Source of the DNA: Prorocentrum cordatum
Taxonomy: Eukaryota
Direction: 5' to 3'
Assembly: GCA_963575745.1 (NCBI GenBank)
Contig: CAUYUJ010000111.1
Location: forward strand, 1-64,000
Length of the DNA: 64,000 nucleotides
The notes below the pieces were generated by a model. That model saw only the letters and a program-made list of their open reading frames with translations, was not told where the DNA came from and searched no databases. The translations under genes were made by a program, and so were the position numbers. Shown here in pieces: positions 3,001 to 58,869 of the stretch (position 1 is the stretch's first letter; each line of letters opens with the position of its first letter).

Positions 3001-5219
3001 TTCTTGCCAACAGCTCTCCAGCGCTTCAGAACTGGACGCGGGCGGTGAACTGTCAACCTTGGTTACCGCCGGGACCCGTAGAGCTTCCAGCTCGACGAAG
3101 TTGAGAACACCGAGGACCTACCAACATTCCGACTCATAGTAAATATTTTGTGCCCTCTCAATGCGACATGCGGACGCGTCTGACGTCTGTGAGTCGACTT
3201 CTATCATTGCCAGCCCTGCAGCCCCCCTACAGCCCGAGTTGAGTGCAGAAAAATGACTCCAACAATACAGTAGTTTCGCAGACCTAATTCAGGCAGCAGA
3301 CGAGTTTCGAGCTCTGGTCTCCGCAGGCGGATGCGCCTGATGTCTCTGAATCGATTGCTGTCCCCAGCAGCACTGTAGCCTTCCCGAGCACGAAATACCG
3401 ACAGCACTTCTCAGGATGACTCGAGCAATACGAATAGTTTTGCGAACCTAGCTCGGGCAACAGGCCAAGTTCAGTGCTCTCGAGTCAACGAACAAAAGCG
3501 CCTGAAGATTTTCAATAGATGTCTGTGACTACGAGCTCTGTTGCTGCCCTACGACTCGAGTTAAGTACAGAAAACCGAGGGTGTCTATCAAGATGATCCA
3601 AATAATACGAATAGGTTTAGGGACCTAGCTCGGCTAGCAGACCGAGTTCAGACCTCTAGATTTAACAGGCGAACGCGCCTAATGATTCTGACTGCGATAG
3701 ATGTGCTTGCCAGCTCTGTAGCTGTCTTACAGCTCGAGTTAAGACCAGAAAGCCGAGAGTTTCTGTCAAGATGACTCGAATAATACGAACAGGTTTCCGG
3801 ACCTAGCTACCCACAGACGGAGTTCAGACCTCTGGGTTCAACAGGCGAACGCGCCTAATTATTCTGCATGCATGAGCTGCTTAACAGCTCTGTAGCTGCC
3901 CTAGAGCTCGAGTTATCTTCAGAAAACCGACAGCGCGTGTCAAGATGACTCGAAACGGCCGTTCCCGCCACAGTGCTTTTTGGCCTTCAAAGTTACCCGA
4001 TCGAGCTGAGATCAAGATGGCGAGCGGGAATAAGATCGAATATCACAGGAAAAAATTCTAGAGCTCTAACGAATGGTCAAATTTCGAGAACAAAATTTTG
4101 AACCAAGCAAAAGTCACCAAAAGTTCCGTCGAGATTTTCCTTGCCAACTAGCTCTGGGGCGCGCCGGAATTACTCTTAGCTTCCAGCTATAATTAGCTAA
4201 GGGAAGCTCTACGAGTTATTACTCTTAAGCTTCCAGCAATAACTTGCTAAGGGAAGCTCTACGAGTTATTTTGCATAAAGTGAAAAACACCGACCCCAGG
4301 TTGCCACATTCTCTCTTTTCGTCGGGGGCGGCCAACTAGCTTCACCCTGCGCCCGAATTCCTCTTAGCTCTTTGAGCTAGGTCCGCAAACCTATTCGTAT
4401 TATTCGAGTCATCTTGATAGCAGCTCTCGGTTTTCTGTACTTAACTCGAGCTTTAGGGCAGCTACAGTGCTGGTAAGCACACCTATCGCACTCAGAATCA
4501 TCACGCGCGTTCGCCTGTTAAATCCAGAAGTCTGAACTCGGTCTGCTAGCTGAGCTAGGTCCGCAAACCTATTCGTATTATTCGAGTCATCTTGATAAAC
4601 GCTCTCGGTTTTCTGTACTTAACTCGAGCTGTAGGGCAGCTACAGGGCTCATTGTGACAGACATCGATGGGGAATCATCAGTCTCGTTCGTCTATTGAAC
4701 CGGGAGCTCTGAACTCGGCCTGCTGCCCGAGCTAGGTTCGCGTAACTGTTCGTATTGTCCGAATAATCTTGAGACGTGCTCTCAATTTTCTGCACTGAAC
4801 TCGTGCTGGGGGAGGGCTACAGTGCTGCAGGTCACATTTATCGATTTGCACACATCAGGCGCGTCTTTCGGTCGATTCCAGAGCTCGGAACTCGGTCTGC
4901 TGCTCGAATTAGGTTCGCAAAACTATTATATTATTCGAGTCGATTGTCGGTTTTCTGCACTTCACTCGGGCTGTAGGGGGGCTTCAGGGTTGGGAATCAC
5001 ATGAGTGGATTCGCAGACATCAGACGCGCCCGCCTGTCGCATTCAGAGGTCTGAACTCGGTTTTATACTCGAACTGGGTTGCGAAACTGTTTGTTTTTGT
5101 TAGCGTTATCTTGAGAGGTCTGAAATCGCTTGGGCTGAAAAATAGTCGTTCTTCCGAGTTTTTTTTCCACAGTATATATTGTCAGGAAGCTCTACGAGTC
5201 CCCCGGCGGTAAGAAAGGT
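1..5219. repeat. Complex satellite block: ~177-178 bp monomers in ~1 kb higher-order units, with an internal inverted segment (~2390-4165)
   Basis: The motif TTCGAGTCATCTTGA...TCGGTTTTCTG recurs at 1225, 1403 and 1580 (spacing 178, 177). 100-1055 is nearly duplicated at 1058-2055. Confidence 0.9.
1013..1046 (+). other. Satellite stem-loop, an empty retrotransposon target site (representative copy)
   Basis: CCGGCGGTAA-GAAAGGTTGACGGT-TTACCGCCGG. Variants lie near 2013, 2354, 3040 (rc), 7425, 39066, 39386, 39819, 40237, 40966, 41998, 48326, 49458, 50564, 50907 and 51307. Confidence 0.9.
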
Positions 5220-5220
5220 C

Positions 5221-7098
5221 GAAGCAGTCCCTTTTTCGGCCAAGTGTAGGAGTTATATCACTCGGGTTCAGAGCATTCTCACTTATGGAAGTCAAGGTAT
5301 TAGTTGGGACAGGGACTCTTTGCATAGCCTGAATGTCTTTGAGGGAAATTGCCTTTACCAGATGACGTCACCCCAAAAGCCAGCCTCCGAAAGTTGGGTA
5401 GTTTGGAAGCCAGCTCGACTCAGAATTGCTAGACGGATGTTCTTTGAAGCCAAGTGCCAGAGCGCAGTACAGAGAGTCCTTTATTCCTTGTGGCAGCTTG
5501 GAGCGGACATAGCATCATATTTCGGAGCCAATGCCGATAGCGGATATCAGATTCCTGAGTCGGAGCTGAGCCCAGGGATGGTCGCGGTCTCTTCAGTTAC
5601 CAATGGGATGGTGGAGGTCTCTTCAGTTACCAATGGGATGGGTGCGGTCTCTTCAGTTACTAATGGGATGGGTGCGGTCTCTTCAGATACGAATGGGATG
5701 GGTGTGGTCTCTTCTGATATGCATGGGATGGTCTCTTCAGTTACCAATGGGATGGGTGCGGTCTCTTCAGTTACTAATGGGATGGGCGCGGTCTCTTCAG
5801 ATACGAATGGGATGGGCGTGGTCTCCTCAGATATGCATGGGATGGTCTCTTCTGCTATGCCCTCTGATAGGGCCTCTTCTTCTCGAGATATTGAAGTTCC
5901 CTGTGAGCGGGGGGGGCCTAGGGACCCCCCCAGGCCCCCCCCGAAGCGTCGGAGGGTGGCAGTTCCTGGACCTGGACAACAGACGGTGTTTCCTCGAGCG
6001 CATCGAGACGCACGTCGGCTTCTGATGTGTTGTACCCCGAGGTGGGAGGAGAAAAGGACACTTGAGTCAGAATGTTTGCGTTCCCAGTGGAAGTGGAAGG
6101 AGGCCTCGAAACTGACACGATTAGGCAGTGCTAAGGGGCAGGCGACGGGTGAACATCCTTGGTGTTTCATGTTCCAGACGATATTTCCCTCGTTTGTGAA
6201 TCTGGAGGATCGGTGGTGGAGGGCGTGCTCTTTCTCTTACTCTGACTTCGTTCAGTATTGCAGGCAGTTCCTGGAAGCTTGTACTTTGGGTTCTCTGTTT
6301 GACTTGTTTGTTGTCCGTGGAGGAACTGGAGGACGAGGAAACTACATAAAGGAGAGGGGGGAGGAGATGATGGCCCGTCCGTTGTCGGTGAAGGAGTCTG
6401 AGAAGCTGGCCCAGAGATTGGCCTCGAACAATGAACAGGAGCCGACTTGGGATCTGAGTGATGATGGGATCGGTCTGGAGCTGACGGGCGATTCGCTTCT
6501 TATCTGTAATTGGATCAACGGTCTCTGGAAGGTTGAAGGAGGAGAAGGAGGAGATGGGGCTTCTTATCGTAGGCGGGTTGCAAATATTATTTCTCTTTTG
6601 GAAGAATTGGAGGAGGAAGGAGTACGACCCCCCTCATGGGGCAATGACTTTATTCGACACATATATCGGGAGAGTAATACAGTAGCTGATGAACTTACCC
6701 ATCTAGCACGGGAAGGCCAGATATTCAGAGAGCTGTTCCACCACCATATCTTCCGTCCTGATGTTCAAGACAACTTTCGAGTTATCGGCCTCCGCGGATC
6801 CTTCGATGGCGGAGTGTGTGCCCAAGGTGTGGGCGTTGGTTGGTTTCTGCAGATTGGATATATCCCTCGCTTTCATGATCCGTACCCTGACCCTGACCAT
6901 AGAGATAAGAGAGCTCGTGTAGTCTCCCTCTTCCCCCAAGCCTCCTCTCCTTGTCCAATCATATGGGAAGTAGTAGGGCGTTGTGCACAGGCACTCCCCT
7001 CCCATAGCAGTATCACTGACGCTGAGCTTTCGGGTCTCGAGGGCCTCTTGCGGGCCGCAGCCCAGGTGGCCCAAGACCTCCAGCTGCAGAGAGACTAG
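5221..7098 (+). pseudogene. Truncated ORF2 C-terminus (post-RT region plus permuted RNase H)
   Basis: YITRVQSILTYGSQG aligns with YAQRVQSIVLYAAEG of family D. Also GDSLLICNWINGLW, HIYRESNTVADELT, GSFDGG and ITDAELSG. The track start at 5179 lies in flanking satellite. Confidence 0.85.
5575..5850 (+). repeat. In-frame 30 bp coding minisatellite (GMGAVSSVTN)n
   Basis: About 9 copies of GGGATGGGTGCGGTCTCTTCAGTTACYAAT; reading frame preserved. Confidence 0.9.
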
Positions 7099-7159
7099 GT
7101 AGGCACTTAACGGGCGCTGGGGCGCTCGGTGCCTGGTCAGCCTCCCCCCCCAAAAAAAA

Positions 7160-7593
7160 GAAAGGTTGACGGTTTACCGCCGGCGCCCAGTTTTGAAGTT
7201 CGTTTTTAGAAGTGAGATTTTTATTCCCTGTAGTAAGCTATGGCGCACCGGCTGGTAAATTTCCTATGGCTCTAGGTCCAGTATTACTATCAAAACACTT
7301 GGAGGAACCCACTGTATGAAAACCGAAAAATCGTATTTTTTTCGATTTTTTCGGCTCTCGCTTCAGAAGCTTCCTTCACGTGTTCGGAGGAGCGCTGTGT
7401 GAGAAGAGAGCTCTATGAGGTGCCCGGCGGTAACTTGGTTGACGGTTTACCGCCGGTTCCCAGTGCCTCGTAGAGCTCTTCGGCATCGATGAGCTAGAGG
7501 AATTCGGGCGCGGGGTGCAGCTACTTGGCCGACCCAGCCCCGACGGACGATGTGCGAACTTTGGGTCGGTTGGACTAACTTTCTGAGATATTT
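7160..7593. repeat. Satellite segment between retroelement A and the giant transposon
   Basis: Contains the stem-loop at ~7410-7477 and the GAATTCGGGCGCGGGGTG module also seen at 39505, 41095 and 50982. Confidence 0.8.
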
Positions 7594-37546: not shown

Positions 37547-37547
37547 T

Positions 37548-43230: not shown

Positions 43231-43448
43231 TCCTCTCCTTGTCCAATCATATGGGAAGTAGTAGGGCGTTGTGCACAGGCACTCCCCTCCCATAGCAGTA
43301 TCACTGACGCTGAGCTTTCGGGTCTCGAGGGCCTCTTGCGGGCCGCAGCCCAGGTGGCCCAAGACCTCCAGCTGCAGAGAGACTAGGTAGGCACTTAACG
43401 GGCGCTGGGGCGCTCGGTGCCTGGTCAACCTCCCCCCCCAAAAAAAAA
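43231..43448 (+). mobile_element. Severely 5'-truncated (~220 bp) copy of retroelement family A
   Basis: Near-identical to 6943-7159, with a poly(A) tail. 24 bp TSD AACAAAGGTTGACGGTTTACCGCC at 43207-43230 and 43449-43472. GCC microhomology at the 5' junction. Confidence 0.92.
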
Positions 43449-47026: not shown

Positions 47027-47085
47027 GACTGGGTCTGGGGCTCCTAAGGAGCTTAACCCTGCCAGGACCCGCCCAGAAGCGCCAG
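44751..47085 (+). mobile_element. 5'-truncated non-LTR retrotransposon (family C)
   Basis: Begins inside RT (WGK..LDVECAFD). The 3' end abuts AAGAAAGGTTCACGGTTTACCGCCGG at 47086. No TSD, and the left arm of the target is missing. Confidence 0.88.
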
Positions 47086-50000
47086 AAGAAAGGTTCACGG
47101 TTTACCGCCGGCGCCCAGTATTTAGAGAACCCGATTCAGAATCATCAGTTGCGTTTGTCTGTCGAATCCAGAGCTCTGAACTCGGTATGCTGCCCGATCT
47201 AGAATCGCGAAGCTATTCGTATTGGTCGAGTTATCTTGAGAAGCGCTCTCGGTTTCCTTGACTCAACTCGCGCTGAGGCTACAGTGCTGGTGGTCGCAGG
47301 AATCGATTTGAAGACATCAGGCGCGTCTGCCTGGCGAATCCAGAGCTCGGAACTCGGTAGCTTAAGAGTATTCCGCGGCGCAGGAAGCTAGTTGGCAAGA
47401 ACAATCTCGACGGAACTTTTGGTGACTTTTGGTCGGTTGAAAATTTTGTTCTCGAAATTCAACAAGTCGTTTGAGCTCTAGTATTTTTTCCGTGATATTC
47501 GATCTTTTTCCCGCTCGCCATCTTGATCTCAGCTCGATCGGGTGAATATTACTATCGAAAAGCACTGTGGCGGGATCGGCCGGTTTGCGTCATCTTGATA
47601 CGCGCTGACGGTTTTCTGAACATAACTCGAGCTTTAGGACTGCTAAAGATCTGATAAGCACAGCTAATCGATATAGAATGATTAGGCGCGTTCGCCCGTT
47701 GAATCCAGAGGTCTGAACTCGGTCTGTTAGCCGAGCTAGGTCCGCAAACCTATTTGTATTATTCGAGTCATCTTGACAGAAACTCTCGGTTTTCTGTGCT
47801 CAACTCGAGCTGTAGGACAGCTACAGAGCTGATATTTACAGAAACCGATTCAGAATCATCAGTTGCATTTGTCTGTCGAATCCAGAGCTCTGAACTCGGT
47901 CTGCTGCCCGATCTAGAATCGCGAAACTATTCGTATTGGTCGAGTCACCTTGAGAAGTGCTCTCGGTTTTCTTCACTGAACTCGCTGAGCTGGCTACAGT
48001 GCTGGTGGTCACAGGAATCGATTTGAAGACATCAGGCGCGTCCACCTGTCGAATCCAAAGCTCGGAACTCGGTCTGCTGCCCGAATTAGGCATGCGAAAC
48101 TACTGTATTTGTTCGAGTCATCCTGAGAGGTGCTGTCGGTTTTCTGCACTTAACTTGGGCTGTAGGGGCGCTGCAGGGCTGGTAATGACAGGAGTCGATT
48201 CGCAGACATCAGACGCGTCCGTCTCTCGCATTCAGAGGTTAAAAACTATTCACTATGAGTGGGAATGTTGGTAGGTGCTGTCGGTTTTCTCAACTTAAGT
48301 CGAGCTAGGAAGCTCTACGAGTCTCCCGGCGGTAACCAAGGTTGACGGTTTACCGCCGGCGCCCAGTTCCGGCGCGGGGTGGAGCTAGTAACTCGTAGAG
48401 CTTCCCTTAGCAAGTTATTGCTGGAAGCTTAAGAGTAATTCCGGGGCGCTGGAGAGCTAGTAACTCGTAGAGCTTCCCTTAGCAAGTTATTGCTGGAAGC
48501 TAAGAGTAATTCCGGCGCGCTGGAGAGCTAGTTGGCCAGAAAAATCTCGACGGAACTTTTGCTGACTTTTGGTCGGTTGAAAATTTTGTTCTCGAAATTC
48601 AACCATTCGTTAGAGCTCTAGTATTTTTTCCCGTGATATTCGATCTTATTCCCGCTCGCCATCTCGATCTCAGCTCGATCGGGTGAATATTACTATCGAA
48701 AAGCACTGTGGCGGGATCGGCCGGTTCGAGTCATCTTGATACGCGCTGACGGTTTTCTGAACATAACTCGAGCTTCAGGACAGCTACAGAGCTGGCAAGC
48801 ACAGCTAATCGATGTAGAATGATCAGGCGCGTTCGCCTGTTGAATCCAGAGGTCTGAACTCGGTCTGTTAGCCGAGCTAGGTCCGCAAACCTATTCGTAT
48901 TATTCGAGTAATCTTGACATAAACTCTTGGTTTTCTGTTCTTAACTCGAGCTGTAGGACAGCTACAGAGCTGATAGTTACAGTAACCGATTCAGAATCAT
49001 CAGTTGCGTTTGTCTGTCGAATCCAGAGCTCTGAACTCGGTCTGCTGTCCGATCTAGAATCGCGAAACTATTCGTATTGGTCGAGTCATCTTGAGAAGTG
49101 CTCTCGGTTTTCTGCACTTAACTCGCGCTGACGGGGGCCACAGTGCTGGTGGTCACAGGAATCGATTAGAAGACATCAGGCGCGTCCGCCTTTCGCGGAA
49201 CTCGGTCTGCTGCCGAAATTAGGTCTGCGAAACTACTGTATTGTTCGAGTCATCCTGAGAGGTGCTGTCGGTTTTCTGCATTAACTTGGGCTGTAGGGGG
49301 GTTGCAGGGCTGCTAGTCACTGGAATCGATTCGGAGACATCTGACGCGTCCGCCTGTCGCATTCAGAGGTCAAAAAATGTTCATTATAATTCGGAGTGTT
49401 AATAGGTGCTGTCGGTTTTCTCAACTTAAGTCGAGCTAGGAAGCTCTACGAGTCTCCCGGCGGTAACCAAGGTTGACGGTTTACCGCCGGCGCCCAGTTG
49501 GCAAGAAAAATCTCGACGGACCTTTTGCTGACTTTTGGTCGGTTGAAAATTTTGTTCTCGAAATTCAACAATTCGTTTGAGCTCTAGTATTTTTTCCCGT
49601 GATATTCGATCTTATTCCCGCTCGCCATCTTGATCTCAGCTCGATCGGGTACCTTTTACTGTCAAAAAGCAGGCAGGCGGGATCGGCCGTTTCAAGTCAT
49701 CTTGACACGCGATGACGGTTACCTGAACATAACTCGAGCTTTAGCACAGCTACAGAGCTGGTAAGCACAGCTAATCGATTCAGAATGATCAGGCGCGTTC
49801 GCCTGTTGAATCTAGAGGTCTGAACTCGGTCTTCTAGCCGAGCTAGGTCCGCAAACCTATTCGTATTATTCGAGTCATCTTGACAGACGCTCTCGGTTTT
49901 CTGTACTTAACTCGAGCTACAGGACAGCTACAGAGCTGATACTTACAGAAACCGATTCAGAATCATCAGTCGCATTTGTCTGCTGAATCCAGAGCTCTGA

Positions 50001-51413
50001 ACTCGGTCTGCTGCCCGATCTAGAATCGCGAAACTTTTCGTATTGTTCGAGTCATCTTGAAAGTGCTCTCGGTTTTCTGCACTGAACTCGAGCTGGGGGG
50101 TGGCTACAGTGCTGGTGGTCACAGGGATCGATTTGAAGACATCAGGCGCGTCCGCCTGTCGAATCCAGAGCTCGGAAGTCGGTCTGCTGCCCGAACTAGG
50201 TCCGCGAAACTATTGTATTGTTCGAGTCATCCTGAGAGGTGCTTTCGGTTTTCTGCACTTAACTCGGGCTGTAGGGGGGCTGCAGGGCTGCTGGTGATCA
50301 CAGGAGTCGATTCGCAGGCATCAGACGCGTCCGCCTGTCGAATCCAGAGCTCGGAACTCGGTCTGCTGCCCGAACTAGGTCCGCGAAACTATTGGTTTTG
50401 TTAGAGTCATCTTGAGAGGTGCTGTCGATTTACGCACGTAACTCGGGCTGTAGGAGAGCTACAGAGCTCGCAAATAAGACAATCCAAAAGCATCGGGGGC
50501 GTTCGGCTGTTGCATTGAGAGGTCTGAAAACATTATATATTGTCAGGAAGCTCTACGAGTCCCCCGGCGGTAAGGAAGGTTGACGGTTTACCGCCGGCGC
50601 CCAGTTAGTCGACCCGGCCAGAAAAGAAGATGTGATAACTTTGGGTTGGTTTTGCGAATATTTGAAAGATATTTGACAATTCATTTTAAGAAAGCAGATT
50701 TCTACTCCGAGCATTAGTATCTTATCTTCATTCTGCGAGCAGCTCAGCTCTCTCGAGAGAATTTTATTATCCAAACATTTGGAGGAACCGACGTCACGTT
50801 GACGCCCACAAATAATGCAAATACGATGTTTTTCTAGAAATACTCTGAGAAGCGATCTGCTTTGAAGCTGAGCATTCTTACGCGTGCAAGGAGCTCTACG
50901 AGGTTCCCGGCGGTGGCCAGGTTGACGGTTCACCGCCGGCGCCAGTACCTCGTAAAGCTCTTCGCCATCGATGAGCTAGAGGAATTCCGGCGCGGGGTGG
51001 AGCTAGTTGGCCCACCCGGCCGAGGCGGACAATGTGACAACTTTTGGGTGGTTTTGCGAATATTTGAAAGATATTTGATAATCAATTTTGAGAAACCAGA
51101 TTTTTCGCACCTGTAGTGGGTTTTGCCGCGTCTGCCAGTAAAATTTTCAGGTCTGTAGGTGCAGTATTACTATCAAAAGACTTGGGGGAACCGACGTTCA
51201 GTAAAAGCAGAAAAACGTGTTTTTTTGAGTTTTTTCTTCCTCGCTCCAGAAGCTTTCTCTCCGTGTTCCGACGATCGCCGTGCAGGACTAGAGCTCTACG
51301 AGGTTCCCGGCGGTAGCCAGGTTGACGGGTACCGCCGGTTTCAGTTCCCCGCAGAAGCTCCGGCGAGCCGGACACGTGTCCGGGAGAGCTGCCGGCAGAG
51401 CTCTACGAGGTTC
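47086..51413. repeat. Satellite block (three to four higher-order units)
   Basis: Monomer anchors at 48728, 48906 and 49083 (spacing 178, 177); stem-loops at 48326, 49458, 50564, 50907 and 51307. Confidence 0.9.
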
Positions 51414-51434
51414 CCGTAGCCATTTTGGCTCAAG
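51414..51434 (+). other. Retroposed dinoflagellate spliced leader (DinoSL)
   Basis: CCGTAGCCATTTTGGCTCAAG matches the 21 invariant nt of DCCGUAGCCAUUUUGGCUCAAG and is not followed by GT. Confidence 0.95.
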
Positions 51435-51978
51435 AACGTCTCGGCTCAAGAACGTCTCTGCCTGGGGAACCTCCAGACGTTCTAGCGAGCCCTGGCCTCG
51501 GGGTGTGAGCCCGGCTTGCCTGGGTTCCCTCGAGGTTCTTGTCTGCTTACTCTACATCTCTTGTATTGTACGCTGTATTCTTCTTCGTGGTATTGAGATT
51601 CTCTGGTGTGCTGCACTGCTGTTCATTGTCTGTCTGCATTCTTTACCTCTTATTGAACGAGTGGTAGTTACTTGTGTGTGGATCGTTGTTGACATCACGT
51701 CGTACGACAGTCCTGAGGCTCAGCTGGCATTGAGGAGAGAGATAGGACTCGAGCATTGGGGTGAAAGTACTGAGGAGTGGTTTCGGCGTCAAAGGAATTT
51801 GGACATACCCACAGAAGACTACCAGGACGAGAGAGTCAACTTTGATTACCTTGAGGAATACCAGCCGTGGGATCAGAAAGATCTGCAGGCACTGGAGGCA
51901 GCATCAAACAAACGTCAACGTGAGGACGATAGGAGCTGGTTAGATAAATACGGATTGAACGGTAATATTCTTGAAGAT

Positions 51979-53082
51979 ATGACTCATGTTGCAGCAGCGG
52001 CGGATGCCGCGATGACTGGGGATGGTGAGACTCGATCCAAACGTGCACGTGGAACAGAGATTGAGGAGGAGAGGAAAGTGATGTTAGAAAAGGAGAAGGA
52101 TCCATTCAAACAGATGATGATGAAGCATGTTTGGAAAACGGAGGATGCCCATGAGGATCTCATCCATGTTGTTCAATCGACGAAGACGGACATCAAAAGA
52201 GTTGATGACACACTCAAGTTGCATACGGAGAGAATGGACAAATCAGATGCACGGACAGATATTTTGGAGAAACAGGTTAAGCAAATTTTGGCTGGATCTC
52301 CTGCAGCTTCGGTTTCGACTAGTGTGGGCCCTGGTGGCTCCTCTGGTGGTGGTGGAGGTTCGATCCCTCGCGTGCAACAGGAGCGATCGAGCCAGTTCAC
52401 ACCAACTTATCTCGAGCTGAAAGGGTGGGTTACGGATTGGTCGAATCAAGTAAATCGGGGAAATCAAATGATACCCTGGGCAGATGCGGCACAGTTAATA
52501 TCAAATATGATTGGGACACTTCAGGGGGAGGAAAGGAATGCTTACGATAAAGATAAAACTGAACGTTTAAACGGAGGAAGATATATGTACGGCAGTGTGA
52601 AGGTCGGTTTCAAAGAAGGGACACCACGGGACACTCTTTGGAGAATAAAGAAATGGATGGATATGGTCTGTAAGGAACCCGCCGACCGCATTGCCCCGCC
52701 CCCAGGTTATACGTATCCAGATGCCGATGTTCTCACTCATGATATGGACACGCCAATCGATCCCAGAAAGATTCGTACGTTAGTGGAGTGTGCACCCTGG
52801 AAGCGTGATCATGTGAAAGCGGTTGCTCGTTTCTGTGGGACTTGGCGTAGTATGACCTCGGCTCATGTTCAAATCGAGATCCGTGGGGAGGTGGGGCCAC
52901 CGAGAAGTCAGATTTGGACTCAAGCTGTTCCGAATTTCCGACCCGTCTGTTTTGCGACGTATACGAATACCACAGGGGCTTGGGTTCTTCATGCTGATGC
53001 ATGGGCTCGTATTGTTTCTTTTTATCCGGCGCTGAAGGTTCCCATGAATGATATACTTCAGGAAGTGAATCGTAGGCAGTGA
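51979..53082 (+). CDS. ORF1 of family D (coiled-coil plus conserved globular domain)
   Basis: First in-frame ATG at 51979; the frame is open further upstream. FTPTYLELKGWVTDW and VECAPWK are shared with ORF1 of family E. Confidence 0.8.
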   Translation: MTHVAAAADAAMTGDGETRSKRARGTEIEEERKVMLEKEKDPFKQMMMKHVWKTEDAHEDLIHVVQSTKTDIKRVDDTLKLHTERMDKSDARTDILEKQVKQILAGSPAASVSTSVGPGGSSGGGGGSIPRVQQERSSQFTPTYLELKGWVTDWSNQVNRGNQMIPWADAAQLISNMIGTLQGEERNAYDKDKTERLNGGRYMYGSVKVGFKEGTPRDTLWRIKKWMDMVCKEPADRIAPPPGYTYPDADVLTHDMDTPIDPRKIRTLVECAPWKRDHVKAVARFCGTWRSMTSAHVQIEIRGEVGPPRSQIWTQAVPNFRPVCFATYTNTTGAWVLHADAWARIVSFYPALKVPMNDILQEVNRRQ

Positions 53083-56000
53083 CGTTTGCGGCGCCTCGTC
53101 CGAGGCATACGCTTGGCGAGCTGGAACCTGAACAAAGCAGGGGAGGCTCATTTCAAATGTGCTGAGATTCTCCATCATATGAGGGCATGTGGTGGGCTCT
53201 TTGCATGTCAGGAAACTCAATACCTAGTGCACGGGGAATTTGAACGCTTGGGGTGGCGCATCAAAACTAGTTCGTGTAGTAAGGCAGCTCTCATCTTCGA
53301 CAGATCTTGGGCGGCTGCCGTCCGTATGTTTTTCACTTGTTTCACGAGGTTCGTTATCGGTGTCTTTGGGTCAGAGAAGTCACCACTCATTATTGTGTCA
53401 GCGTGTTTGCCAGACCCTCATGTGGAGGATTGTGTAGAGATTGCTGCGGAGGTATATGAGCAGATCGGTCGTGCTCGCAATGTTCTCCGCACTAAGTTTC
53501 CGCAGGCCAGCTTTTGTGTTCTGCTAGATGCAAACGTGGAGATTCCGCCTGGATGCAGATTTACGTATAATGGGGAGGAGTATGAGGCTACTGGAAAGGA
53601 AGGTACTCGTACGGACAGAAGGTGGGAGAGAGGAGGAGACGGTACACAGCAGATTGAAAGGAGGAGTCGGAGGAGGAGGCTGAAGGAGCTGCTGTTAGAG
53701 TTCATGGAATCGCATGGACTGAAGGCCGCCAACACTTTCTGTACTAGGAGGCATACCTGGGAGTCGTGGGGGGAGAACAAGTTTCTGACTTCGAAGAGGG
53801 TCCTGGATTACCTAATGGTCCCTCACCGTTGGGAGTTCTCGGATCTGGAGGTGAAGTGGTGTTTCAAGAGGGGTGGGAAGAAGCAGTTCAGTAGATTATC
53901 CGATCACGCAATCATCACGGCGAGTTTCACTGACCCTGGGAACGTGATTGTTCGTCGCCCTGACCCCCAGCCTGGTCAGAAGTCTAGGCCGTCTCTGGTC
54001 GGATACAAGTGTTCGACTTGGGCTGATGAGCATCAGGCTCGACAGCATGTGGATTCGTATCTAGGCGGTGCTGCCTTTTCAAGGTGTCCGTCTGTGACCT
54101 GTCCACAGGGTCTGGAGAGTACTATGCTGGAGGCGTACTTGTCACCGACGGTGGACTACTCCACCACGGGTGCGAGAAGACCGAGAGAGCCGTCCAGGCC
54201 GGTGCAGCTCACAAGAGCGGAGGAGGAGGTTAAGATGTGTCCGAAGGAGGAAGTGGAGAGGTTGAGGAGGTTAAAGAATGAGGCTAATCGTCTACGCAGA
54301 GGTTATCGACGTGATATGATTATGTGCAGATGTCCCCCAACAAAACGAAAGGTCAGATATACTATCAAACATTTAGTGGTGGATGGGAGGGAGACGGAGG
54401 ACCGTGAGGAGTGGAAGGAGGAGCTCGACAAGTTCGTTCGTTGCAAGGTGTCGTCCGAAGAGATACGCAATTCCACCAACAGTATGATGGAGGAGATCAG
54501 GATGAGGGCTGTACATGAGATACGTTCCACATCAGTTGTGGGAATTAGTATGGCGCTGCTTCTCAGAGCACGAGCTCGGCTGAAGACCCAGAGGGCTACT
54601 GGGCCAGACGGGATACCGTGCGAGATTCTAAGGAGCTTGCCGTGGTGTGCTCTCAGAGCGATCCAGAAGTTGTTCGATAAAATCATCAAGCTCACGATTC
54701 CGTATCCTCAGTCGTGGCGTGAGATTCTCGTCTCTTTTATGCCAAAAACTCCAGGGATCACTAAGTTAAAAGACGGACGTTTGCTGTGTATGCAGAATGC
54801 TGTTTCGAGATGGTTCAGTTCCTGTGTTGTTCTCTTGGTTGAGGGTCATATTGAAAGAAAAGGAGTGTTTCGTCATATTGGGTTGTATGGTTTCCAGGAA
54901 CACCGTCGTACACACGAAATCACGGCTAGCATCAAACACATAGGTCAACATGCTGCACAATGGGGAAAAGGGGAAACGGCACACTTGGCGAACGCTGATG
55001 TCCTTCAGGCGTTCGATCACTGCACGGTGGCCAATGTCAGGCGCGGGTTGGATCATGCGGATGTACCCCTTTACCTACAGTATGCTCTACTTGACCCCTT
55101 GTGCGAATGTGTAGGCACTGTCTATTATGATGGGATTGAGGTGGTGGAGGTTAGGTGGGACAAATGTATTCGGACGGGAGGGCCCGAGGGACCGTTGGCC
55201 TTCAATCTCATCGTTGCTGCTATGTGGGGCTCCACGATTCGAGAATGGGACGTACTAGGACTAGGTTATCGTATTGAGTATGTGACTGGCTCGACTAGCT
55301 GTGTTTCGATTATTAATCATTTCCTTTGGGCTGACAACTGTTATGTATTGGCTCGGAGTCGAGAGGAACTCACACGCATGTTACACGGTCTAACTACACA
55401 GTTACATGATTATGGAATGAGATGGAAGGAATCCAGCCTATTGTATATGGTGTTCGGGGTCGAGCCGCCGCGAGATGTGGAAGGGGAATTACTTCACACT
55501 GCTGATCTTGTTCTCTCGGTGGGGTCGGAGGCGTCTGGAGTGTATCGATTTAGAAGGACGACGGAGATGGAGGTGCTGGGGGCTTATATTTGTTCTGAAC
55601 TACATGTGAATGAACATCATGATTTGGACGCTCGTATTGACTGTGCTCGCAGGGCCTTCTGGGGGCAGGCGACCTTCTTCCGCTCCACGGCCATCCCGTT
55701 GAAAGATAAATATGAGAGGTATGCTCAGAGAGTTCAGAGTATTGTGCTCTACGCGGCGGAAGGATGCACGGTCGATTCAAGTTCATTGAGCGCCCTTCAT
55801 ATCTTTGAGGGCAAGTGCCTGTCTGTAATGTCTCGCTGTGTACGGAGGGAGGGGGAAAGTTACCAGGAATGGAATACGAGGAGGTATGAACGTGCGAGAC
55901 AGAAATTTCATGATGCTCACTTTGTGGGCATTGTACAGAAGTTTCTCAGAGTGCATTGGATGTGGGCAATTGACATCCAGGACTTTGCACGCAGGCTGAT

Positions 56001-57036
56001 CACAGATCGGGGGGAGTTGGAGGCGAACTCGATGAGAGCTTGGAGAGATTCTCGTTTCTCATTTCTGGCGTTTGGCCGACTGTGGGATAGAATGAGGACG
56101 GATTCAAGTGAGGCTCTCAGATGTTGGGGAAACTGGAAGGAGGCCAGCTCTATGAAAAGGCATCGGGGGGGACAAGAGAGCGTCGGACTCCGTCCGTGGT
56201 ATTATTCATTGGAATCGTTTTACGGTTTATCCTGGTGGGAGTTCTTTGCTGGAAGTTTTGAGCATTTCATGGATTTCGCTACTAATGTTTGTTCTAGTAC
56301 TATGTTGAAGTACTTCCAAAAGAAGTGTAAAGGTTTGGCGTCCTCAGGGGTGCCTGTATTCTTGAACTTGGATGAGGATGGAGGGGTTCATATCGGTCAG
56401 GATCGGGAGGATACACCAGCATATAGGGATCGCCTCAGCAAACGTATTGCGTTGCATAATATGCGTTGTACACAGTGGGACCTCGATACAGATGGGATAC
56501 CACTGGACATCCAAGGGGACTCACTGCTTGTTATTAACTGGCTCTGCGGGAAATGGAAAGTATTAGCTCAGGTATATCAGAAAAGGGTGGATACTCTGAT
56601 TAATAAGTTGGACGAAATGCAGGAAACTTACTTGGTGAGGCCTCCAGAGGCCGGCCGTGACTTCTTCTCTCATTCGTTTCGGGAATGGAACCAGAAAGCT
56701 GACTTACTGACCCATCAGGCCCGTCAGGGCCATGTGTACGCCGATTTCGTTTACCTCAACGACTTTGAATCTCAGTGTTATATTCCTTGCCTTATCAAAG
56801 CCGGCTTTGATGGGGGAGTTTGTAGCCGCGGAAGTGCCTGTGGTGCATGGATACAGATTGGTCTGCGAAACAAGTATATCTTCTCGCGGACCGACATCAT
56901 TTTCAAGGATGTGTATCTTGCGGCTTGGTGTCTACCACCGAGCGCCACTGTTGCAGATACGGAACTATCGGCGGCGGAGCGCATATGCGAGTTGCTCCCA
57001 CAGGTTGTGCAGACCTTCTTTGATCATTCGCAGTGA
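53083..57036 (+). CDS. ORF2 of family D: APE endonuclease, reverse transcriptase and permuted RNase H
   Basis: APE motifs SWNL, CQET, LDAN, NTF..HTW, LDY, SDH. RT motifs ATGPDGIP, ADVLQAFD, IRTGGPEGP, WADN, VLG. RNase H motifs at 56500-56990. Confidence 0.95.
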   Translation, partial: RLRRLVRGIRLASWNLNKAGEAHFKCAEILHHMRACGGLFACQETQYLVHGEFERLGWRIKTSSCSKAALIFDRSWAAAVRMFFTCFTRFVIGVFGSEKSPLIIVSACLPDPHVEDCVEIAAEVYEQIGRARNVLRTKFPQASFCVLLDANVEIPPGCRFTYNGEEYEATGKEGTRTDRRWERGGDGTQQIERRSRRRRLKELLLEFMESHGLKAANTFCTRRHTWESWGENKFLTSKRVLDYLMVPHRWEFSDLEVKWCFKRGGKKQFSRLSDHAIITASFTDPGNVIVRRPDPQPGQKSRPSLVGYKCSTWADEHQARQHVDSYLGGAAFSRCPSVTCPQGLESTMLEAYLSPTVDYSTTGARRPREPSRPVQLTRAEEEVKMCPKEEVERLRRLKNEANRLRRGYRRDMIMCRCPPTKRKVRYTIKHLVVDGRETEDREEWKEELDKFVRCKVSSEEIRNSTNSMMEEIRMRAVHEIRSTSVVGISMALLLRARARLKTQRATGPDGIPCEILRSLPWCALRAIQKLFDKIIKLTIPYPQSWREILVSFMPKTPGITKLKDGRLLCMQNAVSRWFSSCVVLLVEGHIERKGVFRHIGLYGFQEHRRTHEITASIKHIGQHAAQWGKGETAHLANADVLQAFDHCTVANVRRGLDHADVPLYLQYALLDPLCECVGTVYYDGIEVVEVRWDKCIRTGGPEGPLAFNLIVAAMWGSTIREWDVLGLGYRIEYVTGSTSCVSIINHFLWADNCYVLARSREELTRMLHGLTTQLHDYGMRWKESSLLYMVFGVEPPRDVEGELLHTADLVLSVGSEASGVYRFRRTTEMEVLGAYICSELHVNEHHDLDARIDCARRAFWGQATFFRSTAIPLKDKYERYAQRVQSIVLYAAEGCTVDSSSLSALHIFEGKCLSVMSRCVRREGESYQEWNTRRYERARQKFHDAHFVGIVQKFLRVHWMWAIDIQDFARRLITDRGELEANSMRAWRDSRFSFLAFGRLWDRMRTDSSEALRCWGNWKEASSMKRHRGGQESVGLRPWYYSLESFYGLSWWEFFAGSFEHFMDFATNVCSSTMLKYFQKKCKGLASSGVPVFLNLDEDGGVHIGQDREDTPAYRDRLSKRIALHNMRCTQWDLDTDGIPLDIQGDSLLVINWLCGKWKVLAQVYQKRVDTLINKLDEMQETYLVRPPEAGRDFFSHSFREWNQKADLLTHQARQGHVYADFVYLNDFESQCYIPCLIKAGFDGGVCSRGSACGAWIQIGLRNKYIFSRTDIIFKDVYLAAWCLPPSATVADTELSAAERICELLPQVVQTFFDHSQ

Positions 57037-57294
57037 TTTGACACACATTGTTTCTTCTTTTCCGTGTCTTGTATATTCCTGCAGCTTCGCTGCTCACTGA
57101 CTTCCTCGATTATCTGTGTGTTCTTTGCGTTTGATTGTGTCATTGCGGCATGTGATTCTCTTTATTCCTTCAGCTTCGCTGTGTGGTATAAGAGCTGACT
57201 GCTTGCGTGATGAATAAGAAGCTCTGTTTTGCCTGAGACTTTGTTGGACCTGGCCTCAGTGGCCAAGACGGTCCCAGCAAAGACGCAAAAAAAA

Positions 57295-58355
57295 GACCAG
57301 GTTAACGGTTCACCGCCGGCGCCAGTAACTCGTAGAGCGTTCCTTAGCAAGTTATTGCTGGAAGCTTAAGAGTAATTCTTGCGCGCTGGAGAGCTAGTTG
57401 GCAACGCAATTTCGACGGACCTTTTGGTGACTTTCCGTCGGTCGAAAATTTGGTTCTCGAAATTCAACAATTCGTTAGAGCTCTAGTATTTTTTCCCGTG
57501 ATATTCGATCTTATTTCCGCTCGCCATCTAGATCTCAGCTCGATCGGGTACCTTTTACTGCCAAAAAGCACTCCGGCGGGATCGCCCGTTTCGGGTCATC
57601 TTAATAGGCGCTGACGGTTTCCTCAAGATAACTCGAGCTTCAGAACAGCTACAGAGCTGGTAAGCACAGCTAATCGACGCAGAATGATCAGGCGCGTTCG
57701 CCTGTTGAACTCAGAGGTCTGAACTCGGTCTGCTAGCCGAGCTGGGTTCGCAAACCTATTCGTATTATTCAAGTCATCTTTGACAGACGCTCTCAGTTTT
57801 CAGTACTTAACTCGAGCGACAGGACAGCTACAGAGCTGATACGCACAGAATCTGATTCAGAATCATCAGTGGCCGTTGTCTGTTGAATTCAGAGCTCTGA
57901 ACTCGGTCTGCTGCCCGATCTAGAATCGCGAAACTATTGGTATTGTTCGAATCATCTTGAGAGATGCTGTCGCTTCTCTGTTCTTAACTCGGGCTGTGGG
58001 GGCTGCATGGCTGGTTATCATTGGAATCGATTGAATACATCAGGCGCGTCCGCCTTGCGAATCCAGAGCTCTGAATTCTGTCTGCTGCGAAGTAGCTCCG
58101 CGAAACTATTCGTATTGTTCGAGTCATCCTAAGAGGTGCTGTCGGTTTCCTGCACTCAACTGGGCTGTAGGGGGGCTGCAGGGCTGGTTATTACAGGATC
58201 AATTCAGAGGGATCAGACGGCCTGTCGCATGGAGAGGTCTGAACTCGGTCTCATACTCGAGCTAGGTTTGCCAAACTATTCATTTTTTTTCTGTGTATTT
58301 TTTTCGAGAATGTTGTCAGGAAGCTCTACGAGTCCCCGGCGGTAACAAAGGTTGA
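57295..58355. repeat. One satellite higher-order unit between elements D and E
   Basis: Head module, 4-5 monomers, then the left half of a stem-loop. Confidence 0.88.
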
Positions 58356-58869
58356 GGAAGCGGAGTTTACCTCCCGCTCTCCCTCGGTCTTGTCCCGTCG
58401 GGGGGCTCACTCGAGCTGCATCGTGTAGTCAGGCAGCCTGCCCCTGGCCCGCCGCGCGGGGGGCGCGTGGCGATCGGGCCACTTCGGCGACTTCGGCTGC
58501 CTGCACTTGTTTGCGGCATTTGTTTGCTTCCCGAGGCAAGCAGGCCGCCTGCACTTGTTTGCGGCATTTTGCCGCGTCGAGCTGGACGGGACGAGCCAGA
58601 GTCAATCGATCGATTTGGACCGCTGGGGAGCCAACTTCGGACATTGGGAGTGGGAGTATCTTGCCAGACAGGTTGGTAGAGCTCGACACGACGATAAGGA
58701 TTCTCTAGTCGACATACCATCTGGGCCACCTGATCTCTCTCCCACTTTACCTCACCATCCTGTTGCCCCATATAACTTTCATCAGTTGAGTGCACATCTC
58801 AAACGTACTCGAGAAGATCGATCGTTCTGTGCGAAGTGGAATATCCCTTGTAATATCTCAGACGGCAAG

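What the first reader, a model, noticed from the sequence alone, without database searches (positions are those of the whole stretch)
5211..58360. Four divergent LINE families insert at the same site in a satellite stem-loop
Seen: the 3' junctions at 7158, 43449, 47086 and 57295 all resume the target exactly after CCGGCGGT^ (AAGAAAGG, AACAAAGG, AAGAAAGG, GACCAGG). The 5' junctions at 5219, 43230, 51413 and 58355 fall in or beside the same hairpin. All copies share one orientation, and none lies in the 31 kb insert. The 5' side varies (TSD 9 bp, TSD 24 bp, ~6 bp deletion, large deletion), as expected for TPRT with a fixed first nick. Known: site-specific APE LINEs (R1, Tx1 clades) mainly target rDNA, snRNA/tRNA genes, telomeres or simple repeats. 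Inference: an old clade of sequence- or structure-specific retrotransposons with a new target.
Basis: partly seen in the sequence, partly recalled or inferred. Interest (0 to 1): 0.87.

Follow-up and report, generated by a model that had tools for sequence, protein, structure and literature searches.

The report
Hairpin-targeting LINE retrotransposons in a dinoflagellate
Five copies from four very different families of one unusual LINE retrotransposon lineage have all inserted at the same base of a conserved hairpin repeat in a dinoflagellate genome, which points to a site-specific retrotransposon group with a target type not described before.

Summary
The window is dinoflagellate nuclear DNA. 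One element begins with the dinoflagellate spliced leader, and a relative is named Prorocentrum cordatum.

A palindromic module (GCTCTACGAG..CCGGCGGTAA-loop-TTACCGCCGG) occurs 22 times: 17 copies are intact and 5 are split by LINE copies A to E. All four visible 3' junctions resume the target directly after CCGGCGGT. The 5' sides vary: 9-bp and 24-bp duplications, a 5-8-bp deletion and one large deletion. This is the pattern expected for target-primed reverse transcription from one fixed first nick.

- **Families:** A/B, C, D and E share no nucleotide similarity and only 25-35% protein identity. All have the same architecture: ORF1, then an AP-type endonuclease, a reverse transcriptase and an RNase H-like tail.
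- **Target:** The module is far more abundant than the LINEs. It also occurs 28 times in unrelated contigs from another genome bin, with compensatory stem changes.
- **Chance:** Coincidence is about 1e-11 or less.

Not shown: that most copies genome-wide sit in this site (no genome was available), or that the elements' own endonuclease sets the specificity.

Verdict: a real site-specific LINE lineage, a new variant of a known kind. Three possibly novel clade features were also seen: a permuted RNase H, a WADN reverse-transcriptase motif, and an in-frame stop between ORF1 and ORF2.

The parts
5203..5219 (+). Left arm of the occupied hairpin module (CCGGCGGT) plus the 5' copy of the 9-bp TSD AAGAAAGGT (5211-5219)
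5220..7157 (+). LINE copy A, 5'-truncated. It starts at the position matching ORF2 residue ~870 of D. It holds a 30-bp internal tandem repeat at 5575-5852, the RNase H-like tail with its stop at 7096-7098, and a short A tail
7158..7183 (+). 3' TSD copy (7158-7166) and the rest of the hairpin (GGTTGACGGTTTACCGCCGG)
43199..43230 (+). Hairpin module upstream of B. The 24-bp TSD copy is at 43207-43230
43231..43448 (+). LINE copy B. It is the last 218 bp of family A (99.5% identical to 6940-7157) with an A tail
43449..43474 (+). 3' TSD copy (43449-43472) and the end of the hairpin
44752..47085 (+). LINE copy C, 5'-truncated inside the RT. The open frame is 44732-47026. The 5' junction lies in a 177-bp satellite monomer, which implies a large target deletion. 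There is no clear A tail
47086..47111 (+). Target resuming after C: AAGAAAGGTTCACGGTTTACCGCCGG
51400..51413 (+). 5' flank of D, the left edge of a module (GCTCTACGAGGTTC). 5-8 bp of target (..GCGGT) are missing
51414..57294 (+). LINE copy D, full length. It holds the 21-nt dinoflagellate spliced leader (51414-51434), ORF1 (Met 51979 to TGA 53080-53082), ORF2 in the same frame (53083-57036, open for 1317 codons) and an A8 tail (57287-57294)
57295..57319 (+). Target resuming after D: GACCAGGTTAACGGTTCACCGCCGG. This gives the unambiguous nick position after CCGGCGGT
58336..58355 (+). Left arm and loop start of the module occupied by E (CCGGCGGTAACAAAGGTTGA)
58356..64000 (+). LINE copy E, which runs off the window. 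ORF1 runs from Met 58870 to TAG 59914-59916. ORF2 follows in the same frame (59917-62835) and continues in another frame at 62652-63998. Other copies in public runs carry 58 more letters at 62664/62665, so this copy has a frameshifting deletion
1013..1046 (+). Intact hairpin module
2013..2046 (+). Intact hairpin module
2353..2385 (+). Intact hairpin module, GGTGA/TCACC stem variant
3039..3072 (-). Intact hairpin module, degenerate. It is the only one in minus orientation
7424..7456 (+). Intact hairpin module inside a longer palindrome (7407-7479). DNA fold -24.1 kcal/mol, z = -6.8
39065..39097 (+). Intact hairpin module (variant)
39387..39419 (+). Intact hairpin module
39820..39852 (+). Intact hairpin module
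40237..40269 (+). Intact hairpin module (variant)
40966..40998 (+). Intact hairpin module
41998..42031 (+). Intact hairpin module
42249..42281 (+). Intact hairpin module (degenerate)
48326..48359 (+). Intact hairpin module
49457..49490 (+). Intact hairpin module
50564..50597 (+). Intact hairpin module
50907..50939 (+). Intact hairpin module, the same stem variant as D's target
51307..51338 (+). Intact hairpin module with a 1-bp deletion in the right arm
47589..48237 (+). Example of the 177-bp satellite arrays that lie between the modules. Other arrays are at 547-868, 1222-1627, 3534-3954, 4374-4808, 41414-41808, 42627-43004, 44186-44751, 48726-49360, 49691-50468 and 57629-57991

Best explanation
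A dinoflagellate lineage of LINE retrotransposons integrates by target-primed reverse transcription at one fixed nick in a conserved palindromic repeat module.

**Architecture.** The elements carry ORF1, then ORF2 with an AP-type endonuclease, a reverse transcriptase and an RNase H-like tail.

**First nick.** The nick is on the bottom strand, at 5'-...N^ACCGCCGG-3'. On the top strand this is directly after CCGGCGGT, three base pairs below the loop of the hairpin. The freed 3'-OH primes cDNA synthesis on the element's RNA, which has an A tail in families A and D.

**Second nick.** Top-strand cleavage is imprecise. It fell 9 or 24 bp downstream, or upstream with a deletion; 12 bp downstream is predicted for E.

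**What this explains.** A constant 3' junction, variable 5' junctions, one orientation, and 5' truncation in A, B and C.

**Age.** Four families that have diverged to 25-35% protein identity keep the same site. The targeting is therefore old and was probably inherited within the clade.

**Transcript.** The full-length copy D is a cDNA of a spliced-leader trans-spliced mRNA.

**Shown versus inferred.** Shown: the junction anatomy, the independence and divergence of the insertions, the domain architecture, and the conservation and foldability of the target. Inferred: that the element's own endonuclease makes the nick, and that most copies genome-wide use this site.
For: - **Junctions.** Four of four visible 3' junctions lie at the same position of the module. 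The TSDs are made of hairpin sequence.
- **Independence.** The TSDs differ and the families differ. There is no blastn similarity among A, C, D and E. BLASTP identities are D-E 30%, D-C 32% and 25% (two segments), D-A 29% and 35%, and C-A 27% and 30%.
- **No other LINE piece in the window.** tblastn found none.
- **Chance.** About 1e-11 to 3e-15.
- **Endonuclease.** The A5 profile matches ExoIII 1ako at E=9.7e-5 over profile positions 6-263. Foldseek hits are R1Bm EN, ExoIII, L1 EN and TRAS1 EN with prob 0.97-1.0, on a model with pLDDT 53. The residues D149, N151, E153, D242, D274 and H275 are invariant or nearly so.
- **Reverse transcriptase.** Pfam RVT_1 scores 46.3 bits for E, against a cut-off of 29.6. 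The profile hits L1 ORF2p at 2.9e-22 and R2 at 1.5e-10.
- **Target is host repeat DNA.** There are 17 intact modules. In two DNA runs (X1, X2) the word depth is 1e4-1e5 over the repeat bins, against 1e1-1e3 over the LINE bins.
- **Target is conserved.** 28 modules occur in 4 contigs of another genome bin. These contigs have 41-43% GC and no other similarity to the window. The stem is 85% paired, with 34 double-change cells. The main changes are CG to GC (19 vs 15) and GC to AU (17 vs 14). None of 500 shuffles reached this.
- **Spliced leader.** It matches exactly at D's 5' end and occurs only once in the window. The sequence is confirmed in the abstract of PMC2606063, as listed.
- **Orientation.** 5 of 5 copies share one orientation although the arms are palindromic.
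Against: - Only five insertions in one 64-kb window were seen. No genome is held, so copies with other flanks elsewhere cannot be excluded.
- The three related metagenome contigs end before or at the element's 3' end and show no flank.
- The junction-level rows of the read-laying output were cut off.
- For A and B the nick is placed only to within 2-3 bases, because the A tail meets target A's. C's element end is not independently defined.
- Nothing shows that the LINE endonuclease, rather than another nickase or a DNA structure, makes the first nick.
- The endonuclease model has low confidence (pLDDT 53). Pfam and a four-sequence profile did not detect the domain.
- The compensatory stem changes mostly separate two module families, so they represent few independent events.
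- In the other genome bin, no module is occupied by a LINE of this clade.
Confidence: 0.8

Rival explanations
1. The LINEs are not themselves site-specific. The hairpin is nicked again and again at that position by something else. Candidates are a host structure-specific nuclease acting on a cruciform, or the nickase of another mobile element for which the module is an end or origin. Any LINE can then use the free 3'-OH.
For: - Four families whose endonuclease domains have drifted apart (D versus E: 34% identity over the N-terminal 300 residues) still use the same phosphodiester.
- The module is a strong hairpin (z -3.3 to -6.8 for 4 of 6 sequences folded).
- It is conserved across genomes like a functional site.
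- The bases next to the nick differ between targets: TTCTT^A or TTGTT^A in A, B and C, against TGGTC^A in D.
Against: - All 5 LINE copies in the window are in modules. None lies in the other ~48 kb, which includes many T-rich sites.
- The TSDs and the variable second nick look like ordinary endonuclease-dependent TPRT.
- One orientation in 5 of 5 copies, despite palindromic arms, argues for asymmetric recognition.
- No nickase gene was found in the window, but only some ORFs were scanned.
Confidence: 0.13
2. The shared site is a by-product of duplication or gene conversion within the repeat array. One or two ancestral insertions were copied along with the repeat.
For: - The region is a repeat array, with self-matches in most 500-bp bins of the repeat domain.
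- A and B are 99.5% identical over B's length.
Against: - A and B have different TSDs (9 versus 24 bp), different truncation points and different loop variants (AAGAAAGG versus AACAAAGG).
- C, D and E share no nucleotide similarity with A or with each other.
- D sits in a different stem variant of the module.
Confidence: 0.02
3. The hairpin halves belong to the elements' own termini, so there is no target at all.
For: None beyond the co-occurrence itself.
Against: - 17 intact modules carry no LINE.
- 28 modules lie in another genome bin with no LINE of this clade.
- The hairpin sequence is duplicated as TSD on both sides of A and B.
- Related transcript-like contigs end near the D-type 3' end without any hairpin.
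Confidence: 0.01

Closest known systems
R1-clade site-specific LINEs (R1 in 28S rDNA; TRAS and SART in telomeric repeats). Recalled from knowledge, not from a call; their endonuclease structures were fold-search hits.
   Same: - An AP-type endonuclease lies N-terminal to the RT.
- Insertion occurs at one defined bond of a conserved multicopy sequence, in a fixed orientation.
- Several divergent families share one target.
- R1Bm EN (2ei9) and TRAS1 EN (1wdu) are among the fold matches.
   Different: - The target here is a palindromic hairpin module in satellite-rich DNA, not rDNA or a telomere.
- No CCHC knuckles occur in ORF1.
- The C-terminal domain is RNase H-like, with an apparently permuted order.
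- The RT motif reads WADN.
- The host is a dinoflagellate.
- No phylogeny could be made, and ExoIII scores equally well in the fold search.
Tx1L of Xenopus (L1/Tx1 group), which inserts at a specific site inside another repetitive element, Tx1D. Recalled from knowledge.
   Same: - It is an APE-type LINE whose specific target lies within another repeated, non-genic element.
- Among solved structures, human L1 ORF2p is the best sequence match of the clade profile (E=2.9e-22).
   Different: - No C-terminal CCHC motif occurs in ORF2.
- The extra RNase H-like tail is absent from Tx1L as far as I recall.
- The target is a hairpin conserved across genomes rather than a transposon-internal repeat.
- Membership was not tested by phylogeny.
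Spliced-leader-gene LINEs with a restriction-like endonuclease (CRE/SLACS/CZAR in trypanosomatids, NeSL-1 in nematodes) and R2. Recalled from knowledge; R2 structures were matched.
   Same: - They are site-specific non-LTR elements in organisms that trans-splice.
- The R2 RT is matched by the clade profile at E=1.5e-10.
   Different: - Those elements lack an AP endonuclease and carry a C-terminal restriction-like nuclease.
- The elements here have the AP type and an RNase H-like tail.
- The spliced leader here is not the target. It sits at the 5' end of copy D because the mRNA was trans-spliced.
Plant L1 elements with an archaeal-like RNase H domain. Recalled from knowledge.
   Same: The RNase H-like region is closest to archaeal or compost-metagenome type-1 RNases H (3aly, 2ehg, 3u3g; E=0.001-0.006).
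   Different: - Only the C-terminal half of the solved RNases H is matched.
- The motifs of the N-terminal half follow it instead of preceding it.

Membership tests
Non-LTR (LINE) retrotransposon, APE type | Reverse transcriptase domain of the LINE type | tested here: met
   - Pfam RVT_1 scores 46.3 bits for E, against a cut-off of 29.6. D scores 26.8 and C 21.4, both below the cut-off.
- The clade profile A5 hits human L1 ORF2p at E=2.9e-22 and R2 proteins at 1.5e-10.
Non-LTR (LINE) retrotransposon, APE type | Endonuclease/exonuclease/phosphatase (AP-type) domain N-terminal to the RT | tested here: met
   - Profile A5 hits ExoIII 1ako at E=9.7e-5 over profile positions 6-263.
- Foldseek top hits are R1Bm EN, ExoIII, L1 EN and TRAS1 EN, on a low-confidence model with pLDDT 53.
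- Pfam and the four-sequence profile A2 found nothing.
Non-LTR (LINE) retrotransposon, APE type | TPRT hallmarks: 3' A tail, target-site duplication of variable length, 5' truncation | tested here: met
   - A tails are present in A, B and D.
- TSDs are 9 and 24 bp.
- A, B and C are 5'-truncated.
- C has no clear tail.
Site-specific LINE (functional class) | Independent insertions at the same bond of the same target sequence, in one orientation | tested here: met
   Four of 4 visible 3' junctions and 5 of 5 orientations agree. Different families and TSDs show independence.
Site-specific LINE (functional class) | The great majority of genomic copies reside in the target | not testable with these tools
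   - No genome is held.
- The related metagenome contigs carry no flank.
- The read-laying tables were cut off.
Site-specific LINE (functional class) | The element's endonuclease cleaves the target at that bond | not testable with these tools
   This needs an in vitro nicking assay.
R1 clade | ORF1 with CCHC zinc knuckles (recalled feature) | tested here: not met
   No C..C...H....C pattern occurs in ORF1 of D or E, nor in any other ORF.
R1 clade | RT groups with R1 references in a phylogeny | not tested
   No reference LINE sequences were available from any tool.
L1 / Tx1 clade | Cysteine-histidine motif at the C-terminus of ORF2 (recalled feature) | tested here: not met
   No such motif was found. 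The C-terminus is RNase H-like instead.
L1 / Tx1 clade | RT groups with L1 references in a phylogeny | tested here: inconclusive
   L1 ORF2p is the best solved match. However, only L1 and R2 LINE proteins are among the solved structures.
RLE-type LINEs (R2, CRE, NeSL) | No AP endonuclease; a restriction-like endonuclease C-terminal to the RT | tested here: not met
   The AP-type domain is present at the N-terminus. The C-terminal domain matches RNase H.
Type-1 RNase H domain | The four acidic active-site residues in the order D, E, D, D within a beta1-3/alphaA/beta4/.../beta5/alphaE fold | tested here: inconclusive
   - The motifs GDS, N..AD, FDGG and T..(A)EL are invariant or nearly so, but in the order D, D, D, E.
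- Profile positions 104-174 match residues 73-131 of solved RNases H.
- VIA-align gives Z 3.7-4.1 with 21-29% identity for model residues 91-180 only.
- The second part alone gives no PDB sequence hit.
- Its predicted secondary structure is three long strands and a helix.

The most novel reading that the evidence does not exclude
A dinoflagellate-wide, ancient partnership exists between a hyper-abundant, structurally conserved hairpin repeat and a dedicated LINE clade. The clade's AP endonuclease reads the extruded hairpin or its asymmetric loop, not just a linear sequence. The clade has kept this target while its families diverged to 25-35% protein identity. It also carries three enzyme oddities that are otherwise undescribed for LINEs:
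- a circularly permuted RNase H;
- an RT active site reading W-A-D-N instead of Y/F-x-D-D;
- ORF2 made by reading through a single in-frame stop after ORF1.

Its mRNA is capped by spliced-leader trans-splicing, so new copies need no promoter of their own.
Probability: 0.3. Interest if true: 0.85.

Novelty: new variant of a known kind. Interest (0 to 1): 0.68.

Why it matters
Site-specific LINEs are the natural models for programmable, RNA-templated gene insertion, and only a handful of target classes are known (rDNA, telomeres, small RNA genes, simple repeats).

- **New target class.** A lineage that aims at a conserved DNA hairpin would add a new target type. It may also add a new recognition mode, structure rather than sequence.
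- **Source of reverse transcription in dinoflagellates.** Retroposition has shaped these genomes massively. Passages read in PMC5585692 say it is unknown what mediates the reverse transcription. A full-length LINE copy that starts with the spliced leader links the two phenomena directly.
- **Function of the module.** The module is very abundant and conserved across genomes with compensatory stem changes, which suggests it does something. The LINE insertions mark it for study.

Tried and rejected
- **Whole-genome census:** not possible, because no genome is held.
- **Cluster look-up of relatives P0006 and P0007:** the database was switched off.
- **Metagenome scan with the C-terminal profile:** 3 loci out of 568 pattern matches. 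All are short contigs that stop before or at the 3' end, so no flank was gained.
- **Viral contigs:** 0 matches to the 20-mer, no relative of the protein, and 3 chance matches to a 17-mer without a hairpin.
- **Prokaryote genome collection:** 3 loci. One is a chance match in a Clostridia MAG. Two come from one marine MAG that holds the module.
- **That MAG in detail:** no protein of this LINE clade and no clearly occupied module. One half-module at L030:632 and one internally deleted module at L030:2320 remain unexplained.
- **Laying contigs of four public runs:** this gave depths and a 58-letter indel. The rows for joints (736 hidden) and loose ends (2317 hidden) were cut, so no empty site or alternative flank could be read. 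The RNA run covered only 55380-57296 of D plus traces of E. Parts without cover mean nothing.
- **RNA families:** Rfam found no family at gathering score in the whole window, and none at E<=1 in 47087-51413.
- **tRNA scan:** none in the window or in the four MAG contigs.
- **Pfam:** nothing for ORF1 (only coiled-coil-like noise), for the endonuclease region, or for 11 of 12 ORFs of the 31-kb block.
- **PDB sequence searches:** nothing for profiles A2 and A4 or for E's ORF2 alone.
- **Foldseek on the RNase H-like model:** unrelated top hits, with RNase H only at ranks 29 and 50.
- **Literature search for the hairpin sequence:** 0 papers.
- **Earlier scan notes:** none.
- **RT phylogeny against named LINE clades:** not made, for lack of reference sequences.


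Full report
**What the window is.**
The window has two kinds of sequence. About 17 kb is a repeat domain at ~50% GC. It lies at 1-5219, 7158-~7590, ~38835-44751, 47086-51413 and 57295-58355, and self-matches fill most of its 500-bp bins. It is made of 177-bp satellite arrays separated by short palindromic modules. The second kind is a 31-kb block at ~60% GC. Five stretches without repeats interrupt the repeat domain.

The organism is a dinoflagellate.
- Copy D begins with an exact 21-base match to the dinoflagellate spliced leader, which occurs only once in the window. I recognised the leader from memory. It is printed in the abstract of PMC2606063 as shown in the search listing, and in passages I read of PMC8045281 and PMC5585692.
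- A protein 94% identical to D's C-terminus carries the source name "unnamed protein product, partial [Prorocentrum cordatum]".

No genome is held for the window.

**Check of the observation.**
CCGGCGGT occurs 35 times, against 2.17 expected. Nearly all occurrences are the two arms of a hairpin, CCGGCGGTAA - 13 or 14 bases - TTACCGCCGG. The hairpin is preceded by GCTCTACGAG and followed by ..CCCAGT. I count 22 modules: 17 intact and 5 occupied.
- **A (5220-7157):** a 9-bp duplication, AAGAAAGGT.
- **B (43231-43448):** 99.5% identical to the end of A, with a 24-bp duplication that reaches into the right arm.
- **C (44752-47085):** ends at ...GCGCCAG, directly before AAGAAAGGTTCACGG. It starts in a 177-bp monomer, so target was lost.
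- **D (51414-57294):** ends in A8 before GACCAGGTTAACGG and has lost 5-8 bp of the left arm.
- **E (58356 onward):** starts after ...GGTTGA and leaves the window.

In A and B the A tail meets target A's, so the nick is placed only to within 2-3 bases. C's element end is not independently defined. D's target variant starts with G and fixes the nick exactly after CCGGCGGT. All five copies point the same way relative to the module. tblastn with the D and E proteins found no further LINE piece anywhere in the window.

**What the elements are.**
A, C, D and E have no nucleotide similarity to each other. Their ORF2 products are 25-35% identical, so they are separate families, and A and B are one family.

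D is complete.
- It has a 565-nt leader.
- ORF1 runs from Met 51979 to TGA 53080-53082.
- ORF2 follows in the same frame and is open for 1317 codons.

E has the same layout, with a TAG between the ORFs. Its ORF2 breaks frame near 62660. Contigs of three public runs carry 58 more letters at 62664/62665, so this copy has a deletion and other copies do not.

A profile of ten clade members (A5) gave these matches among solved structures:
- human L1 ORF2p at E=2.9e-22;
- R2 proteins at 1.5e-10;
- exonuclease III at 9.7e-5, over the whole N-terminal domain;
- RNases H at 0.001, in the tail.

A low-confidence model of the N-terminal domain (pLDDT 53) finds R1Bm endonuclease, ExoIII, L1 and TRAS1 endonucleases as its best folds. 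Pfam sees only the RT, above its cut-off for E alone. ORF1 has no recognised domain and no CCHC knuckle.

The clade is diverse but small in public data. Among 1.84 billion representatives, 861 clusters match at E<=1e-3 and 31 at E<=1e-30.

**What the target is.**
The module folds as a 10-bp stem with a 13-14-base loop. In 4 of the 21 right-arm contexts listed, the stem is extended by an outer inverted repeat, AGAGCTCTACGAGG...CCTCGTAGAGCTCT.
- With DNA parameters the extended form gives -24.1 kcal/mol, z = -6.8.
- The plain forms give z = -1.6 to -3.7.

The insertion bond lies in the stem, three pairs below the loop.

The module is not part of the LINEs. There are 17 copies without any LINE. 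In two DNA runs (X1, X2) the summed word depth is 1e4-1e5 over the repeat bins, against 1e1-1e3 over the LINE bins. Depth is no copy number, but the gap is large.

Unexpectedly, the same ~55-base module occurs 28 times in four contigs of a marine MAG in the prokaryote collection. These contigs have 41-43% GC and share nothing else with the window. They are most likely stray eukaryotic contigs in that bin.

I aligned 39 modules (14 of the window's 17 intact ones, leaving out duplicates and the 1-bp-deleted one, and 25 of the 28 others) and counted the stem pairs.
- The stem is 85% paired.
- There are 34 double-change cells.
- The main changes are C-G to G-C (19 vs 15) and G-C to A-U (17 vs 14).
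- Inside the window, A-T changes to G-C in the GGTGA/TCACC variant.
- None of 500 shuffles reaches these values.

These changes mostly separate two module families, so they count as few events. The loop core GGTTGACGG is almost invariant.

No Rfam family, no tRNA and no paper match the module. Its function is unknown. The pattern of conservation says it has one, or that it is the working end of some other mobile element.

**How it most likely works.**
The anatomy is that of target-primed reverse transcription with a fixed first nick and a loose second one.
- The bottom strand is cut at 5'-...N^ACCGCCGG-3'.
- The 3'-OH primes on the RNA's A tail in families A and D. Family C has none visible.
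- The top strand is cut 9 bp downstream in A and 24 bp downstream in B. A cut 12 bp downstream is predicted for E. In D and C the cut fell upstream, with loss of target.

The arms are palindromic, so the same ACCGCCGG stands on the top strand of the right arm. Even so, 0 of 5 copies used it in the opposite orientation. Recognition must therefore include something asymmetric: the loop or the outer flanks.

D's 5' end is the spliced leader minus its first base. It is joined at a 3-base overlap (CCG) with the target, so D is a copy of a mature, trans-spliced mRNA.

A poly(A)-selected marine metatranscriptome holds contigs at 55380-57296 with few differences. The last contig runs 20 letters past 57296. 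This is compatible with a polyadenylated D-family transcript. Contigs cannot prove ends, however, and DNA carry-over is not excluded.

That the element's own endonuclease sets the site is inferred from the analogy with R1, TRAS and Tx1L (recalled) and from 5 of 5 copies lying in modules. It is not shown.

**Rivals.**
- **Recurrent nick made by something else (about 0.13).** The module may be nicked at that bond by a host structure-specific nuclease or by the nickase of another element, with LINEs using the end opportunistically. This would explain why families with very different endonuclease sequences agree, and why the bases beside the nick differ between targets. It does not explain why no copy lies elsewhere in the window. 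Only a genome census and a nicking assay can settle it.
- **Duplication or gene conversion.** This is excluded by the different families, TSDs, truncation points and module variants.
- **Hairpin as element terminus.** This is excluded by the intact modules and by the hairpin-derived TSDs.

**Comparison and novelty.**
The behaviour is that of the known site-specific APE LINEs. I recall R1 in rDNA, TRAS and SART in telomeres, the Tx1 group in small RNA genes and repeats, and Tx1L inside another transposon. None of these comes from a call.

Membership in a named clade could not be tested by phylogeny. Two recalled hallmarks are absent:
- CCHC knuckles in the ORF1 of R1;
- the Cys-His motif at the end of L1/Tx1 ORF2.

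The restriction-like endonuclease group (R2, CRE, NeSL) is excluded by the AP-type domain.

Searches of the paper library for site-specific or target-specific LINEs in dinoflagellates found nothing relevant.
- Passages of PMC8045281 describe dinoflagellate LINEs only as old, divergent remnants.
- Passages of PMC10666404 do not treat them.
- Passages of PMC12130899 concern introners.

Supplements were not opened and might hold repeat libraries. I rate this a new variant of a known kind: a known strategy, in a new lineage, with a new class of target.

**Limits.**
All of this rests on one window with five insertions. No second locus with a flank could be obtained, so genome-wide specificity, copy numbers and the age of the association remain inferences.

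Noticed in passing
window 56383-57036 (D); 6430-7098 (A); 46480-47026 (C); 63400-63998 (E): The C-terminal RNase H-like domain has its motifs in a permuted order: GDS, then N..AD, then FDGG, then T..(A)EL.
- All four residues are invariant in 6 sequences.
- All three motifs checked by regex (GDS, N..AD, FDGG) stand in this order in 10 of 16 distant relatives. The other 6 lack an exact match to at least one motif.
- Only the first part matches solved RNases H, at their residues ~70-135.
- The last part is predicted as three long strands plus a helix, but alone it has no PDB sequence match.

This looks like a circular permutation of RNase H that is conserved across the clade.
   Followed up: partly
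window 55327-55338 (D ORF2 residues 749-752); E ORF2 residue 770; C frame residue 125: The RT active-site motif reads W-A-D-N where LINE RTs have F/Y-A-D-D.
- A, D and N are invariant, and W nearly so, in 10 clade members down to 20% identity.
- It lies about 45 residues after the motif that aligns with L1's RQGCPLSPLLFN.
- Its identity as motif C rests on my knowledge of L1.
- The elements nevertheless look recently active: A and B are 99.5% identical.
   Followed up: partly
window 53080-53082 (TGA) and 59914-59916 (TAG): In both D and E, ORF1 and ORF2 lie in one frame, separated by a single stop codon. The conserved endonuclease motif A-S-W-N lies upstream of the first Met of ORF2. ORF2 is therefore probably made by stop-codon readthrough, or some other start without AUG.
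   Followed up: partly
window 51414-51470: Full-length copy D starts with the spliced leader. This is followed by a 16-base duplication, GGCTCAAGAACGTCTC, that repeats the leader's last 8 bases. The LINE mRNA is trans-spliced, so new copies bring an acceptor-bearing leader with them.
   Followed up: partly
window 7588-38834: A 31.2-kb block at ~60% GC is bounded by imperfect inverted repeats of ~33 bp (7588-7619 and 38800-38834).
- It holds a C5 cytosine methyltransferase-like ORF at 19434-20759 (Pfam E=1.2e-8).
- It holds a 77-bp x 21 tandem array at 31060-32673.
- 11 of the 12 ORFs scanned have no Pfam match.

It is possibly a large DNA transposon inserted into the repeat domain.
   Followed up: partly
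L028, L029, L030, L018 (four contigs of one marine MAG in the prokaryote collection): These contigs are dense arrays of the same hairpin module, 28 copies in ~15 kb, in otherwise unrelated AT-richer sequence. They look like eukaryotic, probably dinoflagellate-like, contigs binned into a bacterial MAG.
   Followed up: partly
L030:600-661: One module in the MAG contigs has its right arm and loop, but unrelated sequence stands where the left arm should be. The break is at or next to the position homologous to the LINE nick. No LINE protein is nearby, and its origin is unexplained.
   Followed up: partly
window 5575-5852: Copy A carries a 30-bp unit repeated about 9 times inside its open frame, coding ...GMGAVSSVTN... 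It stands where D has unrelated sequence between ORF2 residues ~970 and ~985.
   Followed up: no
window 2643-2744, 4169-4270, 48367-48532: Further short tandem and palindromic units (50 and 72 bp) contain ACTCGTAGAGCTTCC, the inverted copy of the module's left flank. Many hairpins are therefore nested in larger palindromes.
   Followed up: no
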